A stretch of 64,000 bases of DNA, taken from the IMG/VR virus record IMGVR_UViG_3300012943_000028, positions 240,642 to 304,641 of that record; one strand, given 5' to 3'. The notes beneath the pieces were generated by a model. The model ran no database searches. It worked only from the letters and a program-made list of their open reading frames with translations, and was not told the origin of the DNA. The stretch is from a virus (lineage: Duplodnaviria; Heunggongvirae; Uroviricota; Caudoviricetes). The first letter of the stretch is position 1, and every line of letters begins with the position of its first letter. The position numbers and the translations under genes are program-made. Below are positions 6,421 through 45,229 of the stretch, in pieces.

Positions 6421-6421
6421 G

Positions 6422-8790: not shown

Positions 8791-8946
8791 GCCGAGGGCC
8801 CGGTTGCACTCATATGAGCAGGCTGGTTTGTGACCGCTGATGGCCCGTGAGATGGCGTTCATGTCCCCGTCAGGGAACATCTTGCGGCAGTGCGCGCACT
8901 CGATGTCAGGCGGACGCTGGTATTTCGGCTCTTTCTTTGACTTCAT
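8779..8946 (-). CDS. small Cys-rich protein (possible zinc ribbon), weakly supported
   Basis: ORF 8779..8994 trimmed to the internal Met (MKSKKEPKYQRPPDIECAHCRK...). It overlaps the 3' end of queC and the promoter copy 2 elements. Confidence 0.3.
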   Translation of the reverse strand: MKSKKEPKYQRPPDIECAHCRKMFPDGDMNAISRAISGHKPACSYECNRALGQVA

Positions 8947-17047: not shown

Positions 17048-17057
17048 ACGCAGGTAT

Positions 17058-22288: not shown

Positions 22289-22369
22289 TTGTAGATGTAC
22301 GGGTCTCGTTTACGAATCTCTTTCATCTTCTTCCAGTATCGAATCTTCGAGCGGATTCGATAGATGATG

Positions 22370-23164
22370 TCACGGAAGAACTGCATGATCGTCTCCTAAA
22401 ATACCACGTGCCTTGAGTTCCTGCACCATGTGATCCGCCCATGCAACATGTGTGCTTGGTGTAGGGTGAATGCACTTGGTCAGTTCCAGCTTGTTGTCAT
22501 ACACCCACTTCATGCATGACTCGTTGAGGTTCATGATGCTAGTGTCGATGAGCTCTGGCAGCATGTGAGCGAGAGCCGGCTTGTATTCACCTTTCTTGTA
22601 CACAGCAAGCGATTCCAAGTTTGGAAGCGCCGAGAAGAACAGGAACTTTACACCCTGCGTTCTCAGGAAGGACTTGAGCATCACAACCTGCTTGAGAAAG
22701 GTGTCCATCGCCGAATAGAACTCGTACACTTCAGCCACAAACATCTGGTGATATTTATCGAGCTGGCGGGCCTTCTCTTCAGTCATTGAATAGCCAGAGC
22801 CGCTGTAGAAGCCGCTGTACATAGAAAATGGCTGTGCTGCGTTGAATCTGAACCAACGATCTGATGGGTCGGCGGCCTTGCGCTCGAAACCCTCGACGTA
22901 AATTTCACCACGCTCAATCGTTGACCAGCCAATGATGACCAGGAGGTTCTTCCTTTCCTCTGGCGGAAGGTTGAGCACGTAGTCGATCGTCATTCTGTAC
23001 ATGCGCGCATTGCTGCCGCCGCCCGCTGCCTGGTTGACATGTGTGATGTTTAGCTTACGAGCTAGAACGGTTGGCCAGCAATGGTCGCGAACCTTACCAC
23101 CCCATGCGGCTGTGCCATCACCGTTCGCCCAGCTGCATCCGTTTGTGTAGAGCTTGTTGATCAT
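22370..23164 (-). CDS. SGNH/GDSL-like hydrolase paralog 2
   Basis: LYTNGCSWANGDG N-terminal block I-like motif; similar to 23949..24848. Confidence 0.5.
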   Translation of the reverse strand: MINKLYTNGCSWANGDGTAAWGGKVRDHCWPTVLARKLNITHVNQAAGGGSNARMYRMTIDYVLNLPPEERKNLLVIIGWSTIERGEIYVEGFERKAADPSDRWFRFNAAQPFSMYSGFYSGSGYSMTEEKARQLDKYHQMFVAEVYEFYSAMDTFLKQVVMLKSFLRTQGVKFLFFSALPNLESLAVYKKGEYKPALAHMLPELIDTSIMNLNESCMKWVYDNKLELTKCIHPTPSTHVAWADHMVQELKARGILGDDHAVLP

Positions 23165-23952
23165 TTGACTAGCTTCCTGTAGAGCTCTTCAGCAACAATC
23201 GCGTGCGCTTCTTCAGATGCGTGCATGCTGCCGATCTTGTCTGGATATTTCTGTGAGAGGCCGAACCAGTTCATTGAGTGAATCTCATCAGCCGGCACGA
23301 GGTCAAGCAGCAGTGGATCATTAGAAAGAATGACGCACTTGATGCCACGCTTCTTTGCGTAGAGGTATGACTTGAGTAGCACACCAACGTCGTAGTTGCG
23401 CTTGATGTCACCGTTTAGAATTTCGACGTAGTACTGACACATGCGCTTGAGCTTCTCAATCGGCTCAGTGTGTAGGCGCTTATAGTAGTGAATGGCGCCC
23501 TGCACATTGGAGCTCTTTTCTCTCTCACGCACCTTGATGTAGTCATCGATACCACCTACCTGTTCCGTGAGGAGACAAGGATCATACTCGCTCTTGTTCA
23601 GGAAGTGATGGTCGAATGGGTTCTTGTTTGCCTCTGGATTGTGGTGTGGTGGGTAGAGATGGTAGTTGATGTGCCGTGCCTCAAGTGGGAATCGCTGTGT
23701 CTTACCCTCCTCGATCCACTCAATACGGTCATAGCTCGTGGTGCCGATGACGATGAGGTCGGGTTTTGGGTCCATCCTTGCAGCGTACTCTACTTGAAGG
23801 TGGACGGCAAAGTTGCTTGCGCTTCCTCTTGCGAGCGTTACGAGCTCTGCTCCGAGCTTCTGCGCAAGCAGCACACCGTACGGCTGTGTCTGAAGGTCCA
23901 GCACGCCGATGCCACAGTTGAAGCTGTCACCGCATACGACTATCTTCTTCAC
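23161..23952 (-). CDS. SGNH/GDSL-like hydrolase paralog 3
   Basis: IVVCGDSFNCGIGV contains the GDS(F) block I motif. Confidence 0.55.
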   Translation of the reverse strand: MKKIVVCGDSFNCGIGVLDLQTQPYGVLLAQKLGAELVTLARGSASNFAVHLQVEYAARMDPKPDLIVIGTTSYDRIEWIEEGKTQRFPLEARHINYHLYPPHHNPEANKNPFDHHFLNKSEYDPCLLTEQVGGIDDYIKVREREKSSNVQGAIHYYKRLHTEPIEKLKRMCQYYVEILNGDIKRNYDVGVLLKSYLYAKKRGIKCVILSNDPLLLDLVPADEIHSMNWFGLSQKYPDKIGSMHASEEAHAIVAEELYRKLVK

Positions 23953-24848
23953 TTGAACTTCCTCTCATAGAGATGGTTTGCCCAAGCCTCGTGGCTCTCA
24001 GGGCTTGGGTGCATGTTGATCATTCGAATTGGCTTAGGCACGTTCTCATCGATGAACGACTTGAAGGACCTGAAGTCCAGCTTGTCCAAGAACACATCAT
24101 CTGGAATGCTCTTCCACTGTGCACGAATCCTGTTGATGTCTTGACGGTTGTTCCATGCGCCATCAAGCCAACCATCGAATGGTTCTGCGTGCCAATTGTT
24201 GATCACCAACGAGAGATCACATGGTCTCCAATCATTGAGCGGTGACAGCTTGCCTTTCGGCATGTTTGGAACATAGAAGGAGTTGAAGAAGACGTGCTGG
24301 ATGGCGTTGCTCTTGAGGTAGGTGTGCAGCTGGAAATTCTGCTCAACGAAGCGAGTGATGGCCTCACGCTCATTCCACAGGTGCTGGATGTAGAACTTTG
24401 AGAAGCGCTTCATGACGTCAAGCTTGTAGTACTCATCTTGGATCATGGCTGGCCAGATGGTGTACTGATGAAGCTTGTCGTCAAACCCTTCTATTAGAAT
24501 GTTCTTTCGCTCAAGGCTCGACCAACCAACCACAACAACAAGCTCTGCCGGATCACCACCCTCTGACAGGTACTTCATCACCCAACCCATCGTGCTGTTG
24601 AAGATGGTGTCATTGCTCCTTGCGGGCCAGCTAATGTTGACTGACTTGTAACCGAGCTTGTTCGCAAGGTGCGTGGACCAAATCCTTGGCACTCGGTAGT
24701 AATCATTGTGCGGCTGACAGTCAAGCATGCCCGCCTTGAAGTTCTGAGTCATGCCTTCGCCCTTCTCTCCAGCAGGCACGAGCATGTGCGGGCCAGCTAT
24801 CTCGCTGCCAAATGCCCAGCTATCTCCATTTGTCAAGAGCGTCTTCAT
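23949..24848 (-). CDS. SGNH/GDSL-like hydrolase paralog 4
   Basis: LLTNGDSWAFGSE GDS motif; TAATG coupling to the upstream gene. Confidence 0.6.
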   Translation of the reverse strand: MKTLLTNGDSWAFGSEIAGPHMLVPAGEKGEGMTQNFKAGMLDCQPHNDYYRVPRIWSTHLANKLGYKSVNISWPARSNDTIFNSTMGWVMKYLSEGGDPAELVVVVGWSSLERKNILIEGFDDKLHQYTIWPAMIQDEYYKLDVMKRFSKFYIQHLWNEREAITRFVEQNFQLHTYLKSNAIQHVFFNSFYVPNMPKGKLSPLNDWRPCDLSLVINNWHAEPFDGWLDGAWNNRQDINRIRAQWKSIPDDVFLDKLDFRSFKSFIDENVPKPIRMINMHPSPESHEAWANHLYERKFK

Positions 24849-25642
24849 TAGAAATTCCTATATGCGTCTCTAAGGGCTTCATGGTCTAACGGCCAGTTGA
24901 GGTGCTCTGTACCCAGTCGAACTACAAAAGGTCCGATGTTGCGTGGTATGTCAACCATCTTGATGCACTTGTCGTTGACCCACTTGTACAGCATTACACC
25001 TACACCATAACGATCTAGCGTTGGGTTTCTTGTGCTGTTGTAGTTGTGTAAAGCATGGAAACGACGGTTGCTGTAGTAGTGCCAAAACCCATCAATCATC
25101 GTCATCACACGACTGCTACCATAGTAGAAGATGTCATCGATGCATGGCTGTCGATATTCAAACGCAAACGAATTGCGTGAACAGTAAACGGTGTCTGGCT
25201 CGATGACGTCAGGTATCGTGAGATCAACGTATGCGTGAGGTGAACACGCAAAGTCAAAGCGCACATGGTAGACCATGTCGAATGACCTACCAGTTTCGAT
25301 CTCGTACTGTGTCTTGAGGTGCATTGACTTGGCGCTGCTTTTGAGCATCGCTGACCACGGAAGAACCTTTCCACCATTGATGAACTGGTGTATCTGCTCA
25401 TCTATTATGAGGCGCTCAAAATTGAATGCAGCCTGCAGCTCTTCACGAAGTGTTTCTACACAGAGCTTTTCAGTAGTTCCAGGATGATCACTGCTAGCCC
25501 GCCAGGTATTTTCGTCCCACGTATGGCCAAAGAACTTCACATCAGCCTTAAGACTGTTGAAGAAGCGCTTGATAGCCGGTAGAGCCGTCTTCCACGTACG
25601 GCTCTGTCCGCTCATGCACACTGCGATGCTATACTGTTTCAT
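24848..25642 (-). CDS. CxSGQxRT-family protein paralog 2
   Basis: Internal start MKQYSIAVCMSGQSRT...FFGHTW aligns with the other two paralogs. The ORF-track N-terminal extension overlaps the upstream paralog. Confidence 0.5.
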   Translation of the reverse strand: MKQYSIAVCMSGQSRTWKTALPAIKRFFNSLKADVKFFGHTWDENTWRASSDHPGTTEKLCVETLREELQAAFNFERLIIDEQIHQFINGGKVLPWSAMLKSSAKSMHLKTQYEIETGRSFDMVYHVRFDFACSPHAYVDLTIPDVIEPDTVYCSRNSFAFEYRQPCIDDIFYYGSSRVMTMIDGFWHYYSNRRFHALHNYNSTRNPTLDRYGVGVMLYKWVNDKCIKMVDIPRNIGPFVVRLGTEHLNWPLDHEALRDAYRNF

Positions 25643-26393
25643 ACTGCTCCAGCTTTCCAGCTCGTGCAAGATGCTCAGCATCACGCATGATCTTGAAGTC
25701 AATGTGTGGTAGCGGAACATTGTCTACGCCGATTGAAGCGCAGTAGTAGAAGAGCGCAAGCTCTGGTGGAAAGATTGGCTCACTAGGCATCACAGACAGC
25801 GCGTCGATATACCTAAAGCTGTCATAGAACATGGCGATGTGGTCATACGTCAGGCTGTCCGACATGAAGAAGATGTCACCAATGCGCATCACGCCATTCG
25901 TTGCATCGATGGAATTGTGAACAGAATGGATAGTCGATGGCAGCATAGTGTCTGCACGCACTGGTGATGTGAACCCACCAGAAAAGAAAAGGTCGGACCG
26001 CAGTCTGACAACAACATCATACTCGAAGTCGTTTTCCATCTCGTGCTCGCGCTTCAGCGTGGCTGCACGCCACAGGCTGTAGAACTGCTCATGAGCAAAC
26101 CATGAGACGACGTTTGTTGGGCCAGTCTGCGAGACGTCCTTCTTGCTCTCGAACAAGAACTTCTTCGGCTTCAAGGTGCTGACGATGCGAGCCTTCTCAT
26201 CTTCAGACAGCGGAATTTCCTTAGGCCTACCGTCTATGAACTCAGCCCTTAGCTGAGGATGACTGTTGTAATCCCACAGGTGGAAGAACAGGTCAACCTC
26301 GCCCATGTTTCCTAGGGCTTGATACCATGAGGCATAGCACTTTTCCCAAGTGCGGGCTTGACCACTGAGGCAGAAGGCGATTCTTGAAGTCAT
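25629..26393 (-). CDS. CxSGQxRT-family protein paralog 3
   Basis: MTSRIAFCLSGQART...LFFHLWD; shared YD.VV..R.D..F central block. Confidence 0.5.
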   Translation of the reverse strand: MTSRIAFCLSGQARTWEKCYASWYQALGNMGEVDLFFHLWDYNSHPQLRAEFIDGRPKEIPLSEDEKARIVSTLKPKKFLFESKKDVSQTGPTNVVSWFAHEQFYSLWRAATLKREHEMENDFEYDVVVRLRSDLFFSGGFTSPVRADTMLPSTIHSVHNSIDATNGVMRIGDIFFMSDSLTYDHIAMFYDSFRYIDALSVMPSEPIFPPELALFYYCASIGVDNVPLPHIDFKIMRDAEHLARAGKLEQYETV

Positions 26394-33406: not shown

Positions 33407-33583
33407 TCAAATATGGTTACGGTCTGGGCCGGTGAGGGTGATATCCATACCACCGGCTTTTGCGGCGGCGATCAAGTCCTGAAGGGCTTCCATCGTGAAG
33501 GTCATAGTGCACATGAACGTTGGAACATCTACCTTCACTGGCATGATGTACTCGCCGTCATTGTGCTTGATCCTGATTTCCAT
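33407..33583 (-). CDS. small protein (~58 aa)
   Basis: MEIRIKHNDGEY...; its ATG overlaps the TAA of mazG (TAATG). The longer ORF in the track has an abnormal N-terminal extension. Confidence 0.35.
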   Translation of the reverse strand: MEIRIKHNDGEYIMPVKVDVPTFMCTMTFTMEALQDLIAAAKAGGMDITLTGPDRNHI

Positions 33584-33987
33584 TAGAAGAGCCTTGCGAT
33601 GGTGCCAACGTTGTCGGCATGCTGTGGACCAACCCAGCCTTCCGGCTTGATGAGGTCTGGCAGACCGAGCGGGTTTGGACGTTCCTTCTTGATTCCACGC
33701 TCCTTGGCCATGTTTGCCCTGTGAACACGGTTCCAAGCTTCCTGCGAGTCTACGTCGAAGGCGTCGAGAGTGCCAATCGCAACGACGCAAAGGTCGATCA
33801 TGGCATCAACGATGTCTTCAGCAGACTCAGCCGTCTTAGCTTCATCAAGCTCTTCCTGAAGGAACTTCAGGCGGAACTCAAGGAAGGCAGCGAGCTTCTC
33901 TTTCGGCAGCTCACGAATTACCTCACGAACACCAAACTTGGTGTGGAGGTCATGAATGTCGTCGATCCAAAATGTCTTATTTGACAT
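33583..33987 (-). CDS. mazG: MazG-like nucleoside triphosphate pyrophosphohydrolase
   Basis: E..E..D...DIVDAMIDLCVVAIGT matches the MazG/dUTPase-like all-alpha NTP-PPase core. Confidence 0.7.
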   Translation of the reverse strand: MSNKTFWIDDIHDLHTKFGVREVIRELPKEKLAAFLEFRLKFLQEELDEAKTAESAEDIVDAMIDLCVVAIGTLDAFDVDSQEAWNRVHRANMAKERGIKKERPNPLGLPDLIKPEGWVGPQHADNVGTIARLF

Positions 33988-34069: not shown

Positions 34070-34756
34070 TCACCAATCTTCAACTCCAAACAGGTATCCC
34101 TTCTCACGAACGACCTCAACGTCAGCCAAGATCTGAACGAGGTTCTGCGCAGGGTCAACATCACCCTTCAGCGTGCGGTCCCACACACACTTGTAGTGCC
34201 ACTGAGTTTCAGGACCGAGCATGCTCACGAAGCGGTTGTTGTAGTTGCGAACTACGCTGAGCACTGTGTCAGTGTGCTCACCTTGGAGAGTGGTGCTGTT
34301 GAGAAGCTCCATCTGCTTGATGGCCTTCAAAACGTCCGCCTCATAGCGCTTCTTGAAGCGTTCAATGCGAACTTCCTGTGGAACATCGACGAAGTACTTC
34401 AGCCACAGCGCACCAACGTCCAGCGCTGGCTTTGCGTAGTGCTCGATTCCTTCTGGCTCGACAACCAAGAACGCAAGACCCATGTCTAGCTTCTTCTTGA
34501 ACTCTTCCTTGGTAACGCCGTAGCGGAATCCACGGAAGGTCATGAGCTCGGCGAAGCCATCTGCTGCCTCAATCGCTCTCGACTCCTCATCGCTGATGAA
34601 GAAGTAGTCTACGCCGTCTACCTCACCATCACGCTTTGGGCGGGTGGTGGTTGAGACGAAACATGGAAGCTTTGCCACATCTCGAATGTAGCTGAGGAGA
34701 TAGCTCTTACCTGAGCAGGTAGGAGATGTGAAGGTGATCAGGACGGGCTTTGACAT
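34070..34756 (-). CDS. guanylate-kinase-like nucleoside monophosphate kinase
   Basis: [11 protein letters not shown] P-loop and [21 protein letters not shown] mirror the Gmk GPSGAGKST and [21 protein letters not shown] motifs. Confidence 0.7.
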   Translation of the reverse strand: [228 protein letters not shown]

Positions 34757-35238: not shown

Positions 35239-35534
35239 GCTTGATCGGTTGAAAGAGCGGAATTTAGAAATTCATCAAGGTCTGCCTGTGCAGGCAGCCA
35301 CGACTTGTCTGTTTTTATTGAGCGTGCCCATTGAACACGCATGAACATATTGTAACACACTCTGAAAATCTGTTCGTCCTTGATGCTGCGTGGCATCAAG
35401 GCTAGCACCTCTTCAGGGTGAATTGGCAGCCAGCTGTTGTCCTTTCGAAACTTGCGCAGGACCTTCAAATTTTCAAGGGTCTCTGCGCAGGCATCGATCT
35501 CAGCTTGCGACAGCCTGCTGTTCCTCTTCTCCAT
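35235..35534 (-). CDS. hypothetical protein (~99 aa)
   Basis: ORF trimmed to the internal Met MEKRNSRLSQ; the upstream extension has an abnormal composition. Confidence 0.4.
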   Translation of the reverse strand: MEKRNSRLSQAEIDACAETLENLKVLRKFRKDNSWLPIHPEEVLALMPRSIKDEQIFRVCYNMFMRVQWARSIKTDKSWLPAQADLDEFLNSALSTDQA

Positions 35535-36534
35535 TGCGCAAGAACCTCTTGGCTGCGGCGAGAGAGCTGCCGACGGCCTGGTGCATGTCGATGTAGACGT
35601 ACTGCCCACAGCGACCGATGAATGTCATCTTCGGCGTATCGATGGCGGCGTACTTCTTGTACGTCTCACGATTCTTTCCGTCGACGTCCTTGACTGGGTA
35701 GTACCGCTCCATGTTGTTGTAGCGGTAGTCGCATGGCTCTTCGAGCGTCAGCGTTGTGATGCTGTCGTTCTGACCGTGTACTGGGTAGTTCTTCCACTCG
35801 GTGATGCGGGTGTGTGGGCCATCATGAGTGAAGTTGACGACTGGGACAGGCAGAATCTTCGACATTGGGAGGTCGAAGGTCGTGAACTTGATTGAGCGGT
35901 ACGGCAGCTCACCGAAGCAGAAGTCGTGGTACTCGTCGATCGGCATCGAGTTGAAGATGTGATCAAACATGCCCTCGAAAATCTTGCTGAACGTGCAGCC
36001 GGTCTTGACGAAGATGTTCTCGTGCTTCAGCATCGCCTCAACCATGGCAGTGTAGCCATTGGTTGGCATTCCCTGGTATGGGTCGTTCGGGAAGTAGAAC
36101 TCGTTGTCGTCATCACGGATCGGCACGCGCTTCATGATTGATGGGTCGAGCCGCTCGAGCGGCATGCCCCACATCTTGAGGGTGTACGGCTTGAAGAAGA
36201 TGTCGAGGACGTTCTCCTCACCTACCATCGCCTTCGTTTCACGGTTGACCGGCAGCGTAGCGTAGCGGCCATCGGCCAGCAGCGCCTTCACCTTGTGCTT
36301 GTATGGAGTCCACTCGGTGAAACGAGACAGGAAGTTCCAGACCTCTTCATTGGCCGTGTGGAAGATGTGCGAGCCATACTTGTGAACACGGATGCCGTGC
36401 TCGTTGGTGTAGTCATAGGCGTTGCCTGCGATATGACCACGCTTGTCGATGACGGTGATGTCGTGTCCAGCTTCTGCCAGCACGCGAGCGACGGTTGCGC
36501 CGGCAAGGCCGGCACCCACTACAAGTATCTTCAT
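35500..36534 (-). CDS. glf: UDP-galactopyranose mutase
   Basis: MKILVVGAGLAGATVARVLAEAGHDITVIDKRGHIAGNAYDY...GIRVHKYGSHIFHT is near-canonical for Glf (FAD-binding GxGxxG then HIGGN then HKYGPHIFHT). Confidence 0.85.
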   Translation of the reverse strand: MKILVVGAGLAGATVARVLAEAGHDITVIDKRGHIAGNAYDYTNEHGIRVHKYGSHIFHTANEEVWNFLSRFTEWTPYKHKVKALLADGRYATLPVNRETKAMVGEENVLDIFFKPYTLKMWGMPLERLDPSIMKRVPIRDDDNEFYFPNDPYQGMPTNGYTAMVEAMLKHENIFVKTGCTFSKIFEGMFDHIFNSMPIDEYHDFCFGELPYRSIKFTTFDLPMSKILPVPVVNFTHDGPHTRITEWKNYPVHGQNDSITTLTLEEPCDYRYNNMERYYPVKDVDGKNRETYKKYAAIDTPKMTFIGRCGQYVYIDMHQAVGSSLAAAKRFLRNGEEEQQAVAS

Positions 36535-36719
36535 TTGAGCACCATGATCATGTCGTAGATGATAGCGACGTCAGTAAAATTGTATGAACCCTTCTGCAGC
36601 ACCGCCTCTTTGGCCCGCGCAAAGATCGCCTCATCGATAGTCCCATGCTGTGACATGATAATTTCTCTGGCAGTTTCAGTTGTCAGCGCAACTGCAAGCT
36701 CGTGTTCAACGTCGATCAT
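36531..36719 (-). CDS. hypothetical small protein
   Basis: 62-aa ORF. Confidence 0.35.
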   Translation of the reverse strand: MIDVEHELAVALTTETAREIIMSQHGTIDEAIFARAKEAVLQKGSYNFTDVAIIYDMIMVLK

Positions 36720-37885
36720 TTGACTGCCTTTAGCACGGCCTCGATCTCGCCGATCTGAATGAGCTTGTCGAGTGGGTGGATGCGATACAGTGCCTGCCTC
36801 TGCAGGGTGGCGATGTACTCAAGCTCAGTGGTGGCAGCTGTTGTGATGTCGGCTGCCGTTAGGTCGAGGAACGGGAAGTCGCTTCCGTAGTAAACAGCGA
36901 GCTCCTTCTTGTCACCAATGAGGATGCTGCCAGCGTCTGCGCACTGCAGCGGGCGTGCTCGCCACCAGCCGGAACCAGCGTGCTCATAACCAGGCATCAA
37001 GCACGCCCAATCACGGTTGATGACCTTGACCATCTCATCTTCGGTGAGGCGCTTCTGCGTCTCCGCCTTTGACCCGTAGAGGTCGACAGGCCAGTCAAGG
37101 ATTGTTCCTTCTTCATCATTCTTCGGGTTGCCAGTGTAGCCCTGCTTCTTGAGCCACTTCTGTGTCTTCGACTGCACGAGGCTGGCAAAGTTGAAGCGCT
37201 TCTCTTTACTCGGTAGGTCTCCAGCCTTCTCAAAGAGGTTGTCAAGAGATGGGTTCCACGTCGGGTCCTCTGCGCCCTCATGACGAATGTCATACCACGT
37301 GCGGTTGCGGTGGTATGGGTTCGGGTTGTAAACGAACAGCCGATCCCGCGGGTAGTCGATCTTGTCGAACAGCAGGTGAGGTCCGAAGTTCTCCGGATCA
37401 TTGAGGTGCTCAGTGCGGAAGGCGCTGATGAGCATGCGGTTCTTCTTCGCAGTGATCACCTTGATGGCGCTGATGAACTGCGTCATGTATGGGTTGAGGT
37501 CTTCCTCGGTCTTCTTGTTGACCCCGAGAATAAAGTCGGCTGACAGCTCGCTCCAATCCTCGCACTTGGCGACGCCCTTGAAAAGGTCTGGCACCTGCCA
37601 ATCGTCGAAGGCGAGGATGCAGTCTGGGCGCTGTGAGATGGCCCACAGTCCCTCGAACACTGTGGTGGCAACTAACTGGCGCGGGCCGGCGATGAAGACG
37701 ATGACCTCATCATATCCGCTGAGGTCCTCGCCAAGTGATACTTGACGCTGATCAACCTCGTAGCCCATTGCCGTAAGGCAGTTGAAGAGCGAGTAGTGAG
37801 ATGGTACCACCTTCAGCTGCTGACGAAGGTAGAACTTGCGGGTACACTGGTTCTTGTTGAAGCCAGTGATCAGAATTCTTTTCAT
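36716..37885 (-). CDS. T4 beta-glucosyltransferase-like DNA glycosyltransferase (GT-B fold), tentative
   Basis: N-terminus MKRILITGFNKNQ...VPSHYSLFNCLTAMGYEVD parallels T4 BGT MKIAIINMGNNV...VPSSETIYLFKVISEMGLNVD. C-terminal ILIGDKK aligns with BGT LIIGDKN. Confidence 0.55.
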   Translation of the reverse strand: MKRILITGFNKNQCTRKFYLRQQLKVVPSHYSLFNCLTAMGYEVDQRQVSLGEDLSGYDEVIVFIAGPRQLVATTVFEGLWAISQRPDCILAFDDWQVPDLFKGVAKCEDWSELSADFILGVNKKTEEDLNPYMTQFISAIKVITAKKNRMLISAFRTEHLNDPENFGPHLLFDKIDYPRDRLFVYNPNPYHRNRTWYDIRHEGAEDPTWNPSLDNLFEKAGDLPSKEKRFNFASLVQSKTQKWLKKQGYTGNPKNDEEGTILDWPVDLYGSKAETQKRLTEDEMVKVINRDWACLMPGYEHAGSGWWRARPLQCADAGSILIGDKKELAVYYGSDFPFLDLTAADITTAATTELEYIATLQRQALYRIHPLDKLIQIGEIEAVLKAVK

Positions 37886-38240: not shown

Positions 38241-38449
38241 GGTGAATCTCCAAGCTTTGCTCGCTCTTCACGGAGTTCGGCGAGCTTTGCATCGTTGTTA
38301 GCTGTCAGCGCTGCGATCTCACGATCGAGCTTATGGCGTCGAGCTTCTTTGTACACGAGTGATTGTGCTTCGTGGTAGAGCGCATGCTCTGCATCAGTCA
38401 TCCAGCCAGAGTTGATGATGCAAAGTGCCTGTGTAAGGGTCAAGCTCAT
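38237..38449 (-). CDS. hypothetical protein
   Basis: 70-aa ORF. Confidence 0.4.
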   Translation of the reverse strand: MSLTLTQALCIINSGWMTDAEHALYHEAQSLVYKEARRHKLDREIAALTANNDAKLAELREERAKLGDSP

Positions 38450-39054
38450 GATAGCGCTGCCTCGAGGATGGCTTCCTTCGGCAGGAAACCGCCAGTGGTT
38501 GGGTCAGTGACAACGATCTCGCGCTTGTCCTTGATGTTCGAGCGGTCAAATGCTGCGATGAACCGCGCCTGTTCTTCTTGACGCTTCTCGATGGGACCAA
38601 GCGACTGCCCATCGTCAACGAAGTGCTTTGCTGACGCAAAGTCCTCGAGCAGAAGTATGAGGCGCAGGCTCGGGTGCTCGTTCAACCCTGTGAGAAGCTC
38701 CTGCTTGTAGACGTAGTCGCCGCTGTAACCACGGTACATTGGAGAGTAGACGACCTCGCCGATGTGCCAGCGGTCAAAGATGATTCGTGAGTTGGACTTT
38801 GCCATCAGCATGGAGTTGCGGAAACTTTCCTGCTGGTAGAAGAACGCTGAGCGGTGCTGCTCTGGAACGAGCTCGATACCGCCGTCGCCCTGGTATGCAG
38901 GCTTCTTGGCCGCTTCTTCGTACAGCTTGAGCTTCTGCGGCTTTGCAAAGTGGACCACCTGATAGAAGCCGAAGGTGTCCATGATTCCCTGGATGAGCGT
39001 GCTCTTGCCGAGACGGTCAAGCCCCTCAATGCCGTAGACTGTGCATGGCTTCAT
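38446..39054 (-). CDS. deoxynucleoside monophosphate kinase (thymidylate-kinase family)
   Basis: VYGIEGLDRLGKSTLIQ matches the Tmk P-loop (ieGiDGaGKsT); ~200 aa. Confidence 0.7.
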   Translation of the reverse strand: MKPCTVYGIEGLDRLGKSTLIQGIMDTFGFYQVVHFAKPQKLKLYEEAAKKPAYQGDGGIELVPEQHRSAFFYQQESFRNSMLMAKSNSRIIFDRWHIGEVVYSPMYRGYSGDYVYKQELLTGLNEHPSLRLILLLEDFASAKHFVDDGQSLGPIEKRQEEQARFIAAFDRSNIKDKREIVVTDPTTGGFLPKEAILEAALS

Positions 39055-39189: not shown

Positions 39190-39519
39190 CTAATCAGATA
39201 CAACCTTCCCGTTCGACCTGACAATATCAGGAATTGAGAAGAACACCGGTATGCCAAGCTCCTTGGCACGTGCGACCTCTGCATCGGCGCCCGACGATTC
39301 ACCAGGAAGGCGCAGGACGCAGTCACAGTCCTCGATCCACGCCATGCACCACTTCAGCCAGTCCGAGTATTCACGCTTGTGAACTTGGTCATGGAAGTGA
39401 ACGAGCAGCGGCATGAACGGAATATAACCGAGGTTCATGAGAACATTGGCCGCATCCATCTGGCGCCTGACGTTACCGTCAACGTCTCCGCTGTAGCCGC
39501 TTGAGATGAAGACCTTCAC
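39190..39519 (-). CDS. nucleoside 2-deoxyribosyltransferase-like protein (DUF4406-like), tentative
   Basis: MKVFISSGYSGD...YIPFMPLL layout resembles the small Rossmann-like deoxyribosyltransferase-like family. Weak. Confidence 0.45.
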   Translation of the reverse strand: MKVFISSGYSGDVDGNVRRQMDAANVLMNLGYIPFMPLLVHFHDQVHKREYSDWLKWCMAWIEDCDCVLRLPGESSGADAEVARAKELGIPVFFSIPDIVRSNGKVVSD

Positions 39520-39857: not shown

Positions 39858-40024
39858 CAAACTCTCTCCTTTTCAACGATGTAGCCAGCTCCCATGCAAG
39901 AACCGCAGTGCATGTATGGATCAACGCATGGGATCATGCGCGTACCGCTTCCGTTGCAGGAGTTGCACTGTCTCCTGCTTTCACGGTACTGAACTCGCTT
40001 CTTGGCCTTCTTACGCTTTGCCAT
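39857..40024 (-). CDS. small zinc-ribbon protein (55 aa; not in ORF track because <60 aa)
   Basis: MAKRKKAKKRVQYRESRRQCNSCNGSGTRMIPCVDPYMHCGSCMGAGYIVEKERV has four CxxC-type pairs. TGATG coupling to the downstream gene. Fills an otherwise empty gap. Confidence 0.4.
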   Translation of the reverse strand: MAKRKKAKKRVQYRESRRQCNSCNGSGTRMIPCVDPYMHCGSCMGAGYIVEKERV

Positions 40025-40514
40025 GAAGCGCCTTAGCGCGAGCCTGTCTCACGCTCACTTCATTTGCCACGGGCCAAGGCACAAACGGGCCGACATTGCT
40101 GCCGAGACGGATCATCTCACGGATCATCGTCGATGAGATGAACGTGTGATCAGACTTTGCCGTAAGAAACACCGTCTCTATTGTGGGGTCAAGGTGGCGG
40201 TTGAAGTGGGCGATCTGTAGCTCGTACTCGAAGTCTGACATTGCACGCAGGCCACGAACCAGCACGGTAGCCTTGTGTGCCTTAGCGTAATGAACCGTGA
40301 AGCCATCGTAGTGACTGACCTCAATGTTCGGAACATCCTTGAACGTCTCAACGATGAACTTGGCTCGTTCTGCTGGAGTAAACATTGTGCTCTTTGCGGA
40401 TGTAATCGGCAAAGCAACGATCACCTTTTCAAACATTGATGCTGCACGCAGTGCAATGTCAGCGTGACCGATGGTGATCGGGTCGAAGGTACCAGCGTAG
40501 ACTGCGATTGTCAT
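40011..40514 (-). CDS. coaD: phosphopantetheine adenylyltransferase (PPAT/CoaD)
   Basis: MTIAVYAGTFDPITIGHADIA matches the CoaD N-terminus (AVYPGSFDPITNGHLDI, T/HxGH nucleotidyltransferase motif). ORF trimmed to the internal Met. Confidence 0.8.
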   Translation of the reverse strand: MTIAVYAGTFDPITIGHADIALRAASMFEKVIVALPITSAKSTMFTPAERAKFIVETFKDVPNIEVSHYDGFTVHYAKAHKATVLVRGLRAMSDFEYELQIAHFNRHLDPTIETVFLTAKSDHTFISSTMIREMIRLGSNVGPFVPWPVANEVSVRQARAKALHGKA

Positions 40515-42259
40515 AGGAACTTTGTGAACCTCGTGTTGAACTCGTCCTTCCATACGTTGAAGCTGCCAGTCCACAGGCGTTGAAGGTTGGCGTCCATGCA
40601 GTACGTGACAGCATGATCGTCGGCGCTGCGGACTGATCGGCCTGCACCCTGCACGGCCTTCATCACGGTGATGATGTTGTACAGGGACGGGTGCTTGTCG
40701 AGAATGAACTTCATGCGCTTGTCGGCGAGTGATGGGAACGGAGCCTTCACTAGAATCTGCCAACGTGACAGATCGCCGGGAAGGTCGATGCCCTCGAACA
40801 TTGACGGCGAGATGAGAACGGCTGGCCCGCCCTGGTAAGCCTTGAAGGCGACGAGGATGTTCTCAAGCTTCTCACCCTGGCGGTGCTCGAAGAGCTTGTA
40901 GCCCTTGATGCCGACGAGCTCTGCGACGAGCTCGTTCTGCAGCTTGAAGCTTGGTGTCAACACAATGCCACGCTCGCCCTTCTCAACGTGGTGCTTCACC
41001 ACCTTTGCCACGTTCTTGCGCAGTTGCGTGACCACCTTCGGGTCCTGCAGCGACTTGTAGCCGAGCGAGAGAGGGTCGAAGAACACAACCTCCTTGTTCT
41101 CCTTCGGAAAGGTAGGTGGCAGCTTGATGAACTTCGTCTGCATTGGGTCGAGGTTCAGGGTCTTCACCATGAACTCTTCAGATACCGTTGCCGACATGAA
41201 GAGATTGTAGTCGGCTGACTGCAGTGCGTCGATCATCGTGCCAACGAAGATTGGCTTCACAGAGATGGCACGCTCTTCTTCCTTGTACTCAAAGACGTGA
41301 TCGTAACCATAGTTGAAGAAGTCGTCGATCTTGCAGCAGAGCCCTTCGTACTTCTTTGCAAAGCGGTTCAGCTTCGTGTACTTGCCCATGTTGCCTGAGC
41401 GCAAGGCGATGTCAGCTTCTGCCTGTCCAGCCTGCTTGGCATAGGTGTACACCTCCATGAGAGCACGAAGGTAGGCCTGGTAGTTGCCAAGATCGCTTGT
41501 TCCGTTGCCATCGTGGATTTTTCCTGGGGTACCAACATCCTTTGCCAGCGACTGAAGCAGCTTGGCGATCTTGACGTCTGTCAGGCCGACAGAGGTGTTG
41601 ATCTCTTCGGCGTACTGCTGCGCCCGCTTTTGTGAGAAGTAGATGGCGTTGTGCTCGCTGAAGAGGTCATTGACGAGGTGGGCTTCGTCCCACACAACAA
41701 GGTCACGGTTCTCAAACTTGCCCGTGTACATGCGGTCAATGAAGTAGTACGAGTAGTTCGTCGTGATGTGACGTACCAGGTTCTTCTTCTGCTTGATCTT
41801 CAGGTAGTCGCAGCCATTGCAGTGCTGCTGGAGAACGGCCTCAAACGAGGAGTCCTTCACCATCGTGTACCAGGCACATGACTCGGCGGTAGCTGGTTCG
41901 GCCGGCGTGCTGAGGGCATCGCAGTCGTAGTTGCCTGCGCCCTTGATCATCACGTACTTACCGTCCTTCTCAAGCTCACGGAATGTGGCGCCGTACTGCT
42001 TTGCAAGAACGTTGGTTGCGGTCAGTGAGATGGAGGACTTGATCGTGCTGGCACTTCCGCCACGGGCGGCCGTCAGCGCCTCGGCTGCGGCGGCGCCGAT
42101 GATGGACTTACCTGTACCAGTAGAAGCATTGAGGATGACGTTCTTGGCCTTGTCGTCGATGAAAGCGGTGATGATTCGATCGACGGCTTCCTTCTGGCCT
42201 GGGCGTGGCGCAAAACCTAGGCGAGCAAACGCTGCGTCAATTTGTTCTTCGTACTTCAT
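40511..42259 (-). CDS. dinG: DinG/Rad3-family ATP-dependent helicase (iron-sulfur type)
   Basis: RPGQKEAV...ASTGTGKS Walker A, a four-Cys cluster (CAWY..CNGCDY), VVWDEAHLVND DEAH box, and the C-terminal LISPSMFEGIDLPGD...VKAPFP typical of DinG. Confidence 0.85.
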   Translation of the reverse strand: MKYEEQIDAAFARLGFAPRPGQKEAVDRIITAFIDDKAKNVILNASTGTGKSIIGAAAAEALTAARGGSASTIKSSISLTATNVLAKQYGATFRELEKDGKYVMIKGAGNYDCDALSTPAEPATAESCAWYTMVKDSSFEAVLQQHCNGCDYLKIKQKKNLVRHITTNYSYYFIDRMYTGKFENRDLVVWDEAHLVNDLFSEHNAIYFSQKRAQQYAEEINTSVGLTDVKIAKLLQSLAKDVGTPGKIHDGNGTSDLGNYQAYLRALMEVYTYAKQAGQAEADIALRSGNMGKYTKLNRFAKKYEGLCCKIDDFFNYGYDHVFEYKEEERAISVKPIFVGTMIDALQSADYNLFMSATVSEEFMVKTLNLDPMQTKFIKLPPTFPKENKEVVFFDPLSLGYKSLQDPKVVTQLRKNVAKVVKHHVEKGERGIVLTPSFKLQNELVAELVGIKGYKLFEHRQGEKLENILVAFKAYQGGPAVLISPSMFEGIDLPGDLSRWQILVKAPFPSLADKRMKFILDKHPSLYNIITVMKAVQGAGRSVRSADDHAVTYCMDANLQRLWTGSFNVWKDEFNTRFTKFL

Positions 42260-44151: not shown

Positions 44152-44489
44152 GATTTTCTCCTGAGGTATGCCATCTTGTGTGGGCCTGCAGGCATGGCCT
44201 CGATTTCCCACGTAGCTTCCATCTCATCTAGCTGAGAGCGCCAGCACTTCAGCACCTCAACATCATTTGGTTTGCGATGGAAGAAGTAGAGCTCCATGTC
44301 ACCAACAGATGACTTGTAGTCTTCAATCCGTTTGGCGGCTGTCGCCTTAGCCTTCTCAACATCGCCATGATGTACGATGGTGTAGAACTCGACTGCCTGC
44401 TCAAAGGTCATCTCATGGTCAGCAAGATAGTCGCCGGTGCTCGGCGTGAGATTGCCAATCCAGGACTCGAAGGCGGTGATCAGCTTCAT
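44148..44489 (-). CDS. hypothetical protein
   Basis: ORF trimmed to the internal Met MKLITAFESW. Confidence 0.4.
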   Translation of the reverse strand: MKLITAFESWIGNLTPSTGDYLADHEMTFEQAVEFYTIVHHGDVEKAKATAAKRIEDYKSSVGDMELYFFHRKPNDVEVLKCWRSQLDEMEATWEIEAMPAGPHKMAYLRRKS

Positions 44490-45229
44490 GGCGTGTAGTT
44501 TGGGTCGACAAGCGTGTAATGACGAGCGTAGACGTGAAGCGATCCGGCGTTCCAGAAGATGTTGCCAACTGGAACGTCGAGGTCGGCTGCGAGCTTGGTT
44601 AGCACGTGGTGCTGCCATGCCCAATCATTCTTGTAACCGAACACCGCATCATTGCTGCGCATCTGAACGATGGCATGCAGCTCGCCGTTACGGATGAGGT
44701 ACTGCACGGCGTTCGTGCACATGAAGTCCGAACGACCATTCTTGTTGTAGTCCAGCCACATGGATGGGCGGGTGTAGATCATCATGGCTCGCCGAGACTC
44801 TGGGTTCTTGCGGAGCTCGATGGCACAGCGCGTGTACTGGCTGTCGTTGTCAATCAGCTGGCTGACGATGTCGTCGTAGTGCGTGAAACCGTTGGCGCTA
44901 GAGTAGATGCACCAGCCGTAGTTCGAGTTGATAAAGCCGTCCTTGTCGGCGACGGTCTTCCAAATCTGTGGTGGTCCGCCGGGGATGTCGTTGACGTTCA
45001 GCGACATTGAGTTGTACCATTCCTCTTCACGCTGCACGTAGTCTTGGTTGACTTCGCCGAAGATTGACGGCTCATCAGCGATGAAGGATGCATTGACGAT
45101 CTCAATCGTTGTAGCGCCGGTAAATCCTAGAAGGTTTGCCTCTCTGTTGACTGAGGTGAACTGCTTGTTGGCGAGTAACGCTTTGAAGAGGTTGCGCACG
45201 TCATTTGTCTTGAGGCTGAGTCCTAGCAT
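44486..45229 (-). CDS. thymidylate-synthase-family pyrimidine hydroxymethylase (dCMP hydroxymethylase-like)
   Basis: RRAMMIYTRP...FMCTNAVQY...QMRSNDAVFGYKND aligns with ThyA RRIIMSAWNP...PCHALFQFY...QRSCDVFLGLPFN. An Asp sits at the position of ThyA Asn177, the cytosine-versus-uracil discriminator. The N-terminal half is divergent. Confidence 0.75.
   Translation of the reverse strand: MLGLSLKTNDVRNLFKALLANKQFTSVNREANLLGFTGATTIEIVNASFIADEPSIFGEVNQDYVQREEEWYNSMSLNVNDIPGGPPQIWKTVADKDGFINSNYGWCIYSSANGFTHYDDIVSQLIDNDSQYTRCAIELRKNPESRRAMMIYTRPSMWLDYNKNGRSDFMCTNAVQYLIRNGELHAIVQMRSNDAVFGYKNDWAWQHHVLTKLAADLDVPVGNIFWNAGSLHVYARHYTLVDPNYTP

What the first reader, a model, noticed from the sequence alone, without database searches (positions are those of the whole stretch)
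35500..37885. UDP-galactopyranose mutase adjacent to a T4 beta-glucosyltransferase-like gene
Glf (35500..36534) is unmistakable and makes UDP-galactofuranose. Two genes away, the product of 36716..37885 parallels T4 DNA beta-glucosyltransferase at the N-terminus (MK-ILIT-FNKN ... VPSHYSLFNCLTAMGYEVD versus MKIAIINMGNNV ... VPSSETIYLFKVISEMGLNVD) and at a C-terminal IGDK motif. If the similarity is real, the phage may transfer a furanose sugar to hydroxymethylated bases. Galactofuranosyl DNA has not, to my knowledge, been reported. Alternatively the glycosyltransferase is a generic GT-B enzyme acting on a non-DNA acceptor.
Basis: partly seen in the sequence, partly recalled or inferred. Interest (0 to 1): 0.65.

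Follow-up and report, generated by a model that had tools for sequence, protein, structure and literature searches.

The report
Phage DNA galactofuranosylation gene module (predicted)
A giant phage carries, in one operon, a distant relative of the T4 enzyme that puts sugar on phage DNA and an enzyme that makes UDP-galactofuranose. It also has a T4-type enzyme for hydroxymethylcytosine, so it probably coats its DNA with an unusual five-membered-ring sugar to evade host nucleases.

Summary

- The window encodes a T4 gp42-type dCMP hydroxymethylase (44486-45229, 51% identity, 5hmC-type signature).
- Hydroxymethylase-GT-Glf linkage recurs: Glf follows the GT in 39 of 41 informative viral contigs, and GT-Glf adjacency is also seen in Aeromonas, Erwinia, Kyanoviridae and actinophage genomes.
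- 15 of the 150 best-scoring family representatives are fusions to C5-cytosine DNA methyltransferases.

Best explanation (about 0.58): the GT transfers galactofuranose from phage-made UDP-Galf to 5hmC in DNA. No chemistry was tested.

Novelty is moderate. BGT-like phage DNA glycosyltransferases have been characterised (Burke 2023), and a phage Glf feeding DNA galactosylation has been proposed for RL38JI on 5-hydroxycytosine (Lee 2026). Neither describes this family or Galf on 5hmC. I rate it a new variant of a known kind, testable in cultured Aeromonas phages.

The parts
36716..37885 (-). BGT-like GT-B glycosyltransferase (389 aa). Predicted DNA 5hmC galactofuranosyltransferase, from a family with no Pfam model (phrog_14998, function unknown).
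36531..36719 (-). 62-codon ORF between GT and Glf, overlapping both by ATGA. Function unknown, not conserved in relatives.
   Evidence: Also called in an independent assembly of the same phage. No tblastn match in any related locus, and in L006 the Glf match begins where the GT match ends (tblastn gap 0).
35500..36534 (-). UDP-galactopyranose mutase (Glf), the predicted supplier of UDP-alpha-D-galactofuranose.
   Evidence: Pfam GLF 6e-52. PDB UGMs 1e-47 to 1e-68, with substrate-binding residues conserved.
44486..45229 (-). T4 gp42-type dCMP hydroxymethylase (thymidylate synthase homologue), the predicted source of 5-hydroxymethyl-dCMP.
   Evidence: Pfam Thymidylat_synt. 51% identity to T4 gp42 against 24% to the RB69 5hoC synthase. 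Signature N168/D169/D177 as in T4 gp42, not Q168/N169 as in RB69.
38446..39054 (-). Thymidylate-kinase-like nucleotide kinase, candidate hm-dCMP kinase. Conserved upstream of the GT in related jumbo-phage contigs.
   Evidence: Pfam Thymidylate_kin 3.5e-5 (24 bits, below the 27-bit cut-off) and phrog_761. 51-72% identical homologues upstream of the GT in L006-L011, L013 and L017. Same position as the kinases next to the first glycosyltransferase in RB69, DLP3 and RL38J1.
34070..34756 (-). Guanylate-kinase-like nucleotide kinase, in the same operon downstream of Glf.
   Evidence: Pfam Guanylate_kin 2.5e-13 and phrog_1815 3.5e-28. Conserved downstream of Glf in jumbo relatives.
33583..33987 (-). 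MazG-like nucleoside-triphosphate pyrophosphohydrolase, candidate dCTPase (dCTP to dCMP, excluding C from phage DNA).
   Evidence: Pfam PRA-PH 6e-9 and phrog_671 1e-19. 51-59% identical homologues 3-6 kb upstream of TS-GT-Glf in the Kyanoviridae-like contigs. A MazG-like gene also lies next to GT-Glf in actinophage DSL-LC01.

Best explanation
This is a pre-replicative cytosine hypermodification pathway of the T4 type, ending in an unusual sugar.

Inferred steps:
1. A MazG-like pyrophosphohydrolase converts dCTP to dCMP.
2. The gp42-type enzyme makes 5-hydroxymethyl-dCMP.
3. Phage kinases and host NDK raise it to the triphosphate.
4. The phage polymerase builds DNA with 5hmC in place of C.
5. 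Glf converts host UDP-galactopyranose to UDP-alpha-D-galactofuranose.
6. The BGT-like GT-B enzyme transfers the furanose to the hydroxymethyl oxygen of 5hmC in duplex DNA. By analogy with BGT this would go through base flipping and an inverting mechanism with an Asp base (candidate D95), giving beta-D-Galf-5hmC.

The expected pay-off is resistance to restriction, CRISPR and glucosyl-hmC-specific type IV nucleases.

Shown here: the gene identities, the BGT homology and fold, the hydroxymethylase signature, the conserved linkage and the domain fusions. Inferred: acceptor, donor, stereochemistry and biological role.
For: Fold and homology:
- GT-B model with pLDDT 90.
- In BFVD, after five members of its own family, the next hit is a 351-residue entry with scores nearly identical to the PDB BGT hit. 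It is presumably BGT, but the entry carries no name.
- The family profile against the BGT family profile gives 95.6% (E 1.2e-8, 303 columns); in global mode 98% (E 1.2e-12).
- BGT R269/E272/R195/I238 align to R311/Q314/K243/L280. R309 is invariant, and D95, W96, E282 and R311 are at least 90% conserved across 112 diverse members.

Substrate supply:
- A gp42-type hydroxymethylase is in the window.
- All 36 thymidylate synthase homologues recovered from the 44 contigs carrying this GT have the T4 gp42 signature and none has the 5hoC signature.

Linkage:
- Glf lies directly downstream on the same strand in 39 of 41 IMG/VR loci with room (median gap about 66 nt).
- A gp42-type hydroxymethylase lies upstream in 30 of 32 loci with room. 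It is near-adjacent in the Kyanoviridae-like group, in the same order as T4 42->beta-gt.
- The GT-Glf pair also occurs in phage C48C1, Aeromonas phage 25 and relatives, Erwinia FBB1 and actinophage DSL-LC01.
- Linkage persists although the parts have been exchanged. Jumbo relatives share a 69-77% identical GT but only a 41-45% identical Glf and a 28-31% identical hydroxymethylase.

DNA as acceptor:
- 15 of the 150 best-scoring cluster representatives fuse this GT domain to a C5-cytosine DNA methylase, and two of the ten scanned with Pfam also carry a UDG-superfamily domain.
- A member sits inside the RB69-like arabinosyl-DNA cluster of Morganella phage Rgz1.
- An exception without Glf lies among PolA, FEN and dCMP deaminase genes.

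Operon: GT, orf62 and Glf are translationally coupled.

Precedent: BGT-like GT-B phage enzymes glycosylate 5hmC in DNA experimentally (bioRxiv 10.1101/2023.12.21.572611).
Against: - There are no chemical data for this or any related phage.
- No family member reaches any Pfam glycosyltransferase model, including PF09198.
- The catalytic Asp could not be placed by sequence. hhalign puts a gap opposite BGT D100, and the isolated N-domain segment shows no detectable similarity.
- BGT E22 aligns to Y31.
- A second NDP-sugar pathway in the window (15.7-25.7 kb) could supply an alternative donor.
- Glf lacks about 35 residues of the helical domain.
- Many of the 44 contigs are related phages, so the counts overstate independence. 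Roughly five lineages are independent.
Confidence: 0.58

Rival explanations
1. The GT is a DNA 5hmC glycosyltransferase but uses a different donor: UDP-glucose or UDP-galactopyranose as in BGT, or the NDP-sugar made by the 15.7-25.7 kb island. Glf then feeds a second step on the DNA glycan or another acceptor.
For: - BGT itself uses UDP-Glc.
- Burke et al. found that a BGT-like GT-B enzyme needs a HAD/APH bifunctional enzyme and a cytidylyltransferase to add heptose to 5hmC.
- The window has an analogous set: KdsC-like HAD phosphatase, NTP-transferase+APH kinase and a cupin isomerase. The nucleotidyltransferase domain is closest to a heptose-1-P guanylyltransferase pathway protein.
- Sugar-pocket residues could not be mapped.
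Against: - GT-Glf adjacency holds in 39 of 41 informative contigs and across about five lineages.
- The island's bifunctional enzyme is absent from the Aeromonas, Erwinia and C48C1 phages that carry GT-Glf.
- The coupled GT-orf62-Glf unit argues that Glf serves this GT.
Confidence: 0.2
2. GT and Glf act on a non-DNA acceptor, such as host envelope polysaccharide or LPS (receptor masking, superinfection exclusion) or virion proteins.
For: - Galf is normally a cell-envelope sugar.
- The UGM of phage DSL-LC01 was interpreted as an auxiliary metabolic gene for host wall synthesis (PMC10611076).
- Gordonia phage 'glycosyltransferase' genes share the C-terminal domain.
- Most GT-containing phage contigs in Burke et al. 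lack an adjacent base-modification gene.
Against: - Full-length profile homology is to BGT specifically.
- The gene is linked to gp42-type hydroxymethylases, nucleotide kinases, MazG and replication genes.
- Family members are fused to C5-cytosine DNA methylases.
- A member sits inside a DNA arabinosylation cluster.
- No membrane-associated or signal features were noticed in the model (not formally tested).
Confidence: 0.12
3. The association is incidental. Glf is an auxiliary metabolic gene that perturbs the host UDP-galactose pool, and the GT is an unrelated or inactive relic.
For: No experimental data exist. The 62-codon ORF between the genes is not conserved.
Against: - The GT is strongly conserved, with invariant or near-invariant R309, R311, D95, W96 and E282.
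- Glf substrate-binding residues are conserved.
- Linkage persists despite component exchange.
Confidence: 0.05

Closest known systems
T4 DNA beta-glucosyltransferase (BGT; CAZy GT63, Pfam PF09198)
   Same: - GT-B fold, and the best solved structural match.
- Full-length profile-profile homology.
- R269/E272-type nucleotide-binding motif retained as R311/Q314.
- Encoded downstream of a gp42-type dCMP hydroxymethylase, adjacent in many relatives as in T4 42->beta-gt.
   Different: - About 10% identity, and below every Pfam threshold.
- 389 aa against 351, with insertions around residues 195-225 and 250-262.
- BGT E22 is not conserved, and the catalytic Asp could not be mapped by sequence.
- Paired with Glf rather than relying on host UDP-glucose.
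BGT-like GT-B phage DNA glycosyltransferases GT53/GT66/GT94 (Burke et al., bioRxiv 10.1101/2023.12.21.572611)
   Same: - Phage GT-B enzymes whose models match T4 BGT at Foldseek E 1e-5 to 1e-7.
- Shown to glycosylate 5hmC in DNA.
- Their HMM hits are often next to thymidylate synthase homologues.
- The C5-MTase fusions found here link this family to the same methyltransferase/TET world.
   Different: - Their characterised enzymes come from MT+TET (post-replicative) clusters and add glucose-type sugars, heptose or Kdo-like sugars.
- No mutase or furanose is mentioned.
Rhizobium phage RL38JI / Pootjesviridae glycosyl-5-hydroxycytosine system (Lee et al. 2026, PMC13326640)
   Same: Phage-encoded UDP-galactopyranose mutase proposed to supply UDP-Galf for the base-proximal galactose on cytosine, in a cluster of thymidylate synthase homologue, glycosyltransferase and nucleotide kinase.
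   Different: - The base is 5-hydroxycytosine (D169N-type synthase), whereas here it is the T4 gp42 type (D169).
- RL38J1 gp215 shows no detectable relation to this GT family or to BGT (hhalign 0.2% and 0.1%).
- By gene number, Glf (gp84) is about 130 genes from the GT (gp215) in RL38J1. Here the two are adjacent.
RB69 / DLP3 arabinosyl-5-hydroxycytosine clusters
   Same: The logic is the same: a phage-made NDP-sugar, DNA glycosyltransferases, a thymidylate synthase homologue and a Tmk-like kinase. A member of the present GT family (Rgz1 gp40) sits inside such a cluster in Morganella phage Rgz1.
   Different: RB69 gp46:47 (arabinosyltransferase 1) is unrelated to the window GT at BLAST level. 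The base, the sugar and the synthase signature all differ.
Bacterial UDP-galactopyranose mutases (K. pneumoniae, D. radiodurans, E. coli Glf)
   Same: Full GLF domain, FAD-binding GxGxxG motif, and conserved Y155/W160/R174/N270/R280/Y314/R343/Y349 (K. pneumoniae numbering).
   Different: About 35 residues shorter in the helical domain. Encoded by lytic phages next to a DNA-type glycosyltransferase rather than in an O-antigen, capsule or arabinogalactan locus.

Membership tests
T4 beta-glucosyltransferase family (Pfam PF09198 / CAZy GT63) | Sequence match to the family model above threshold | tested here: not met
   No Pfam family at E<=0.01 for the window protein or for any of 112 diverse relatives. 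True BGT homologues all carry PF09198.
T4 beta-glucosyltransferase family (Pfam PF09198 / CAZy GT63) | Remote homology detectable by profile-profile comparison over the whole protein | tested here: met
   hhalign A3 against A4: 95.6%, E 1.2e-8, 303 columns. Global mode: 98%, E 1.2e-12.
T4 beta-glucosyltransferase family (Pfam PF09198 / CAZy GT63) | Two-Rossmann-domain GT-B fold closest to BGT | tested here: met
T4 beta-glucosyltransferase family (Pfam PF09198 / CAZy GT63) | UDP-binding residues (R191, R195, R269, E272; residue roles from my knowledge of the Morera/Lariviere structures) | tested here: inconclusive
   R269->R311 (at least 90% conserved), E272->Q314, R195->K243, R191->S239 with K240 adjacent. 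The basic/polar character is retained but the residues are not identical.
T4 beta-glucosyltransferase family (Pfam PF09198 / CAZy GT63) | Catalytic base Asp100 after beta-4 | tested here: inconclusive
   Near-invariant D95 follows the predicted strand 90-93. However, hhalign places a gap there, and the isolated segment gives no significant alignment. No model coordinates were available for superposition.
T4 beta-glucosyltransferase family (Pfam PF09198 / CAZy GT63) | Transfers a sugar from a UDP-sugar to 5hmC in duplex DNA | not testable with these tools
   Supported only indirectly, by hydroxymethylase linkage and C5-MTase fusions.
UDP-galactopyranose mutase (Pfam PF03275 GLF) | GLF domain above the gathering score, plus an FAD-binding Rossmann motif | tested here: met
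   176.7 bits against a cut-off of 26.3, covering profile positions 2-203 of 203. NAD_binding_8 1.2e-19.
UDP-galactopyranose mutase (Pfam PF03275 GLF) | Conserved substrate-binding Arg/Tyr/Trp residues of solved UGMs | tested here: met
   The alignment to 1wam shows identical residues at Y155, W160, R174, N270, R280, Y314, R343 and Y349. The roles of these residues come from my knowledge of the UGM literature.
T4 gp42-type dCMP hydroxymethylase | Thymidylate synthase fold with catalytic Cys, Asp at ThyA position 177 (cytosine specificity) and Asp at position 169 | tested here: met
   51% identity to T4 gp42. C146, N168, D169 and D177 are identical to T4 gp42.
5-hydroxy-dCMP synthase (RB69 gp48 / DLP3 gp80 type) | D169N signature (Lee et al. 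2026) | tested here: not met
   The window and all 36 linked homologues have D169. RB69 gp48 and Rgz1 gp33 have Q168/N169.
RL38J1 gp215 'galactosyltransferase 1' family | Detectable sequence or profile similarity | tested here: not met
   hhalign A3 against gp215: probability 0.2%. No Pootjesviridae hit in tblastn. The single-sequence target limits sensitivity.
BGT-like GT-B DNA glycosyltransferases of Burke et al. 2023 | GT-B model matching T4 BGT at Foldseek E about 1e-5 to 1e-7, encoded with a 5hmC-producing enzyme | tested here: met
   Foldseek E 3e-6 and a gp42-type hydroxymethylase in the window. Criteria taken. Membership in their HMM was not tested.

The most novel reading that the evidence does not exclude
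Galactofuranosyl-5-hydroxymethylcytosine is a widespread, so far undetected DNA hypermodification. It would be made by a new BGT-related glycosyltransferase family in at least five phage lineages. In this jumbo phage the Galf would be further elaborated by the second, low-GC sugar island (NDP-heptose-like pathway plus four SGNH/GDSL-type proteins). The result would be a branched or O-acylated heteroglycan on DNA.
Probability: 0.1. Interest if true: 0.8.

Novelty: new variant of a known kind. Interest (0 to 1): 0.6.

Why it matters
Sugar-coated cytosines decide which restriction, CRISPR and type IV systems can attack a phage, and they affect sequencing and engineering of phage DNA.

If the prediction holds, three things follow:
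- A hexofuranose joins the short list of sugars known on phage DNA.
- About 530 uncharacterised protein clusters (at 50% identity) gain a function.
- 'GT next to Glf next to a gp42-type hydroxymethylase' becomes a simple genomic marker for the modification.

The module is present in cultured Aeromonas and Erwinia T4-like phages, so the claim can be tested directly by nucleoside LC-MS and NMR. An enzyme that attaches Galf to 5hmC could also serve as a labelling tool orthogonal to T4 BGT.

Tried and rejected
- Direct sequence routes to BGT failed. There was no Pfam hit, no PDB sequence hit with either the single protein or the family profile, and only a weak N-terminal hhalign match against the single BGT sequence. 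Homology appeared only once a BGT family alignment had been built.
- I tried to place the catalytic Asp by re-aligning only residues 60-135 of both families. No signal was found, and model coordinates are not exposed to scripts.
- I tested whether the GT belongs with RB69 arabinosyltransferase 1 (gp46:47) or RL38J1 gp215. It belongs with neither.
- I tested whether the thymidylate synthase homologue is a 5-hydroxycytosine synthase. It is not.
- Megablast of the 5-kb region against phage genomes found nothing.
This biases the loci towards two subfamilies.
- The 329-aa protein next to Glf in DSL-LC01 is not a thymidylate synthase homologue.
- Annotation of the unknown proteins in the sugar island by PHROGs, NCBIfam and PDB sequence search gave little.
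- The genome contigs and metagenome-contig scans were not run.
Full report
WHAT IS THERE

The window belongs to a 358-kb metagenomic contig, i.e. a jumbo phage: the GT protein is identical to P0001, whose longest contig is 358,444 bp. The region 33-43 kb is a run of minus-strand genes. In transcription order, with annotations, they are:
- a DinG-like helicase (40511-42259)
- a CoaD-like cytidylyltransferase (40011-40475)
- a DUF4406/nucleoside-deoxyribosyltransferase-like protein (39190-39519)
- a thymidylate-kinase-like kinase (38446-39054)
- two small ORFs
- the 389-aa candidate glycosyltransferase (36716-37885)
- a 62-codon ORF (36531-36719)
- Glf (35500-36534)
- a weak C39-like protein
- a guanylate-kinase-like kinase (34070-34756)
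- a MazG-like pyrophosphohydrolase (33583-33987)

GT/orf62 and orf62/Glf overlap by ATGA, so the three are translationally coupled. A strong terminator-like hairpin at 43249-43226, followed by a promoter-like site, suggests that the transcription unit starts near 43.2 kb.

CHECKING THE OBSERVATION

Glf is unambiguous:
- Pfam GLF 6e-52, plus an FAD Rossmann domain.
- 1e-64 to 1e-68 to solved UGMs, with Y155, W160, R174, N270, R280, Y314, R343 and Y349 (K. pneumoniae numbering) all conserved.
- It lacks about 35 residues of the helical domain.

The claimed resemblance of the 389-aa protein to T4 BGT is half right.
- Pairwise BLASTP gives only 17/53 identities at the N-terminus (E 0.039), and the 'IGDK' match has E 3.9.
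- In the full-length alignment, window I323-K326 pairs with BGT L281-E284. BGT's own IIGDK strand pairs with window 296-300.
- The C-terminal motif is therefore a coincidence one beta-alpha-beta unit out of register.

IS IT BGT-LIKE?

At sequence level there is no direct evidence.
- No Pfam family matches the protein or any of 112 diverse relatives.
- The PHROG is 'unknown function'.
- No PDB sequence is hit.

Structure and profiles give a different answer.
- An AlphaFold2 model from 45 homologues is confident (pLDDT 90.1, pTM 0.89) and shows two Rossmann-like domains.
- Against the PDB, Foldseek ranks T4 BGT entries first (1qkj, E 3.1e-6, TM 0.54/0.58). SenB and T4 alpha-glucosyltransferase follow.
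- In the viral structure library, the five best hits are uncharacterised members of the protein's own family. The sixth is a 351-residue entry with scores nearly identical to the PDB BGT hit, presumably BGT.
- I built a BGT family alignment and a diverse alignment of the query family. hhalign then gives 95.6% probability (E 1.2e-8) over 303 columns, and 98% (E 1.2e-12) in global mode.
- BGT R269, E272, R195 and I238 align to R311, Q314, K243 and L280.
- R309 is invariant across the family. D95, W96, E282 and R311 are at least 90% conserved.

One gap remains. The catalytic base D100 could not be mapped by sequence. D95, which follows predicted strand 90-93, is the obvious candidate, but that is inference.

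Conclusion: this is a distant homologue of BGT that forms its own, unannotated family. The family has 531 cluster representatives at E<=1e-3 in the 50%-identity library. It is not a member of PF09198/GT63 by the family's own threshold.

IS THE ACCEPTOR DNA?

Four independent lines say yes.

(1) A hydroxymethylase is present. The window encodes a thymidylate synthase homologue at 44486-45229. It is 51% identical to T4 gp42 and only 24% identical to the RB69 5-hydroxy-dCMP synthase. At the diagnostic positions defined by Lee et al. 2026 it reads N168/D169/D177 like T4 gp42, not Q168/N169 like RB69. It is therefore predicted to make 5-hydroxymethyl-dCMP.

(2) Synteny is conserved. A scan of IMG/VR returned 44 loci encoding relatives.
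- Glf lies directly downstream on the same strand in 39 of 41 loci with at least 1.5 kb of room. The median gap is about 66 nt.
- A gp42-type hydroxymethylase lies upstream on the same strand in 30 of 32 loci with at least 5 kb of room.
- All 36 linked homologues have the T4 gp42 signature.
- In the 40-47%-identity group the order is MazG...hydroxymethylase-GT-Glf, with the hydroxymethylase about 430 nt from the GT. This mirrors T4's adjacent 42->beta-gt.
- GT-Glf adjacency is also seen in phage C48C1 (Kyanoviridae), in 19 Aeromonas phage records and 2 Stenotrophomonas phage IME13 records, in Erwinia phage FBB1, and in actinophage DSL-LC01. In DSL-LC01 it sits beside RecA, helicase, PolI and MazG.
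- In Aeromonas phage 25 and in FBB1 the pair lies between motA and asiA.
- Linkage survives component exchange. Jumbo relatives share a 69-77% identical GT but only a 41-45% identical Glf and a 28-31% identical hydroxymethylase.

(3) Domain fusions. Nine of ten long family members carry an N-terminal C5-cytosine DNA methylase domain. Two also carry a UDG-superfamily domain, and two carry an intein with a LAGLIDADG endonuclease. A local HMM finds the methylase domain in 15 of the 150 top representatives.

(4) Recruitment into another DNA-sugar cluster. Morganella phage Rgz1 gp40, a family member, sits between arabinose-5-P isomerase and the NDP-sugar synthase of an RB69-like arabinosyl-5-hydroxycytosine cluster. 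That cluster also contains the RB69 gp46:47 homologue and a Q168/N169 synthase.

One contig without Glf has the GT among PolA, FEN and dCMP deaminase genes.

WHICH SUGAR?

The near-obligate, translationally coupled pairing with Glf is the argument for UDP-galactofuranose.

A competing donor exists in this window. A lower-GC island (GC about 0.50 at 16-26 kb; genes at 15.7-25.7 kb) encodes the following:
- a KdsC-like phosphatase
- a shikimate-dehydrogenase-like reductase
- a bifunctional sugar-1-P nucleotidyltransferase/APH-type kinase, whose N-domain is closest to a 6-deoxy-heptose pathway guanylyltransferase
- a cupin isomerase
- four proteins with N-terminal GDS(L)-type motifs
- two paralogues of unknown function

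This resembles the salvage-type logic of the RB69 arabinose pathway and the HAD/APH/cytidylyltransferase set that Burke et al. found necessary for heptosylation of 5hmC by a BGT-like enzyme. However, the island's bifunctional enzyme has no homologue in the Aeromonas, Erwinia or C48C1 phages that carry GT-Glf. The GT-Glf module therefore works without it.

MECHANISM PROPOSED

Probability about 0.58. The steps are:
1. dCTP is converted to dCMP (MazG-like enzyme).
2. dCMP is converted to 5hm-dCMP (gp42-type enzyme).
3. Kinases raise it to 5hm-dCTP.
4. It is incorporated into DNA.
5. Glf converts UDP-Galp to UDP-Galf.
6. The BGT-like GT transfers Galf to the 5hmC hydroxyl. By analogy with BGT this would use base flipping and an inverting mechanism, giving beta-Galf-5hmC.

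Gene identities, homology, fold, signature, linkage and fusions are shown here. Acceptor, donor, stereochemistry and anti-restriction role are inferred.

Rivals:
- same acceptor, different donor (0.20)
- non-DNA acceptor (0.12)
- incidental association (0.05)

COMPARISON WITH THE LITERATURE

- T4 BGT is the closest characterised homologue.
- Burke et al. (bioRxiv 10.1101/2023.12.21.572611) showed experimentally that phage GT-B enzymes with BGT-like models glycosylate 5hmC. They also showed that such enzymes are often next to thymidylate synthase homologues. They do not mention a mutase or a furanose.
- Lee et al. 2026 (PMC13326640) propose phage-made UDP-Galf for the galactose on 5-hydroxycytosine in RL38JI. 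That system uses a D169N synthase and a glycosyltransferase (gp215) with no detectable relation to the present family.
- The only paper in the held library that comments on a member of this module treats the DSL-LC01 mutase as a host cell-wall auxiliary gene.
- No paper in the held library links Aeromonas phages to the mutase.

VERDICT

It extends known chemistry (sugar on hydroxylated cytosine) rather than adding a new category, so I rate it a new variant of a known kind. Interest is 0.6, because the prediction is specific, widespread and immediately testable in cultured phages.

Noticed in passing
window 15702-25720 (- strand), GC about 0.50 against 0.54-0.57 in the flanks: A lower-GC sugar island encodes: a KdsC-like HAD phosphatase (18838-19299); a shikimate-dehydrogenase-like protein (19268-20134); a bifunctional sugar-1-P nucleotidyltransferase + APH-type kinase (20082-21596, closest PDB sequence a 6-deoxy-heptose pathway protein); a cupin/PMI-like isomerase (21593-22288); a weak GatZ-like protein (17831-18868); four proteins with N-terminal GDS(L)/SGNH-type motifs (15702, 22370, 23161, 23949; two match DUF6071); and two paralogues of phrog_13607 (17058, 24848). 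It looks like a salvage-type NDP-sugar pathway with tailoring enzymes. The acceptor is unknown. Its bifunctional enzyme is absent from other GT-Glf phages.
   Followed up: partly
proteins P0161, P0165, P0170, P0175, P0183-P0185, P0192, P0196, P0201, P0207, P0220, P0237, P0244: Multidomain relatives combine a C5-cytosine DNA methylase with this GT domain. Some have a UDG-superfamily domain between the two. P0170 and P0175 have an intein with a LAGLIDADG endonuclease inside the methylase. These appear to be single polypeptides for making and glycosylating a C5-modified cytosine.
   Followed up: partly
L006-L017 compared with the window: The module is a mosaic. The window's GT is closest to jumbo-phage relatives (69-86%). 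Apart from L006 (and L008 for the hydroxymethylase), those relatives have only a 41-45% identical Glf and a 28-31% identical hydroxymethylase. The window's Glf and hydroxymethylase are closer to those of the Kyanoviridae-like group (61-67% and 43-50%). The components have been swapped while linkage was kept.
   Followed up: partly
L050 (Morganella phage vB_MmoM_Rgz1) 7004-8071: A member of the same GT family (gp40) sits inside an RB69-like arabinosyl-5-hydroxycytosine cluster, next to arabinose-5-P isomerase. It may be the second arabinosyltransferase there, in place of RB69 gp3.
   Followed up: partly
L004 (Aeromonas phage 25) 5893-8074; L005 (Erwinia phage FBB1) 5934-8059: In these T4-like phages the Glf-GT pair lies in the variable region between motA and asiA, annotated 'not conserved in 44RR2.8t'. 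This suggests a mobile cassette.
   Followed up: no
window 35500-36534: The phage Glf is about 35 residues shorter than bacterial UGMs in the helical domain (between K. pneumoniae residues about 104 and 146), although the substrate-binding residues are intact.
   Followed up: no
window 12854-13384 and 40011-40475: The phage encodes an acyl-carrier-protein-like protein (PP-binding 6.9e-11) and a CoaD-like cytidylyltransferase/phosphopantetheine adenylyltransferase-like protein (CTP_transf_like 1.7e-18). This pairing is unusual for a phage.
   Followed up: no
window 54627-56390: A Ro60/TROVE + vWA protein (Ro60 vWA 1e-52, TROVE 1e-33), i.e. a phage-encoded Ro60-like RNA-binding protein. No search for an accompanying Y-RNA was made.
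   Followed up: no
window 58304-59062 and 57412-57984: A non-specific DNA/RNA endonuclease (Endonuclease_NS 5.8e-38) and an HNH endonuclease. The former would fit degradation of unmodified host DNA by a phage whose own DNA is modified.
   Followed up: no
window 39190-39519: A DUF4406/DUF7768 protein (phrog_355 'nucleoside 2-deoxyribosyltransferase', 2.3e-23) lies in the same operon as the kinase, GT and Glf, and is conserved in L006. A role in nucleotide-pool editing is possible but untested.
   Followed up: no
window 8906-9613: A borderline QueC-like hit (22.3 bits against a cut-off of 22, N-terminal about 50 residues only). It is probably just a PP-loop ATPase, but is noted because QueC belongs to 7-deazaguanine DNA modification pathways.
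   Followed up: no
window 4978-8694: Type II topoisomerase subunits (GyrA-like 4978-6399, GyrB-like 6742-8694) lie in a higher-GC stretch (0.59-0.62) at the start of the window.
   Followed up: no
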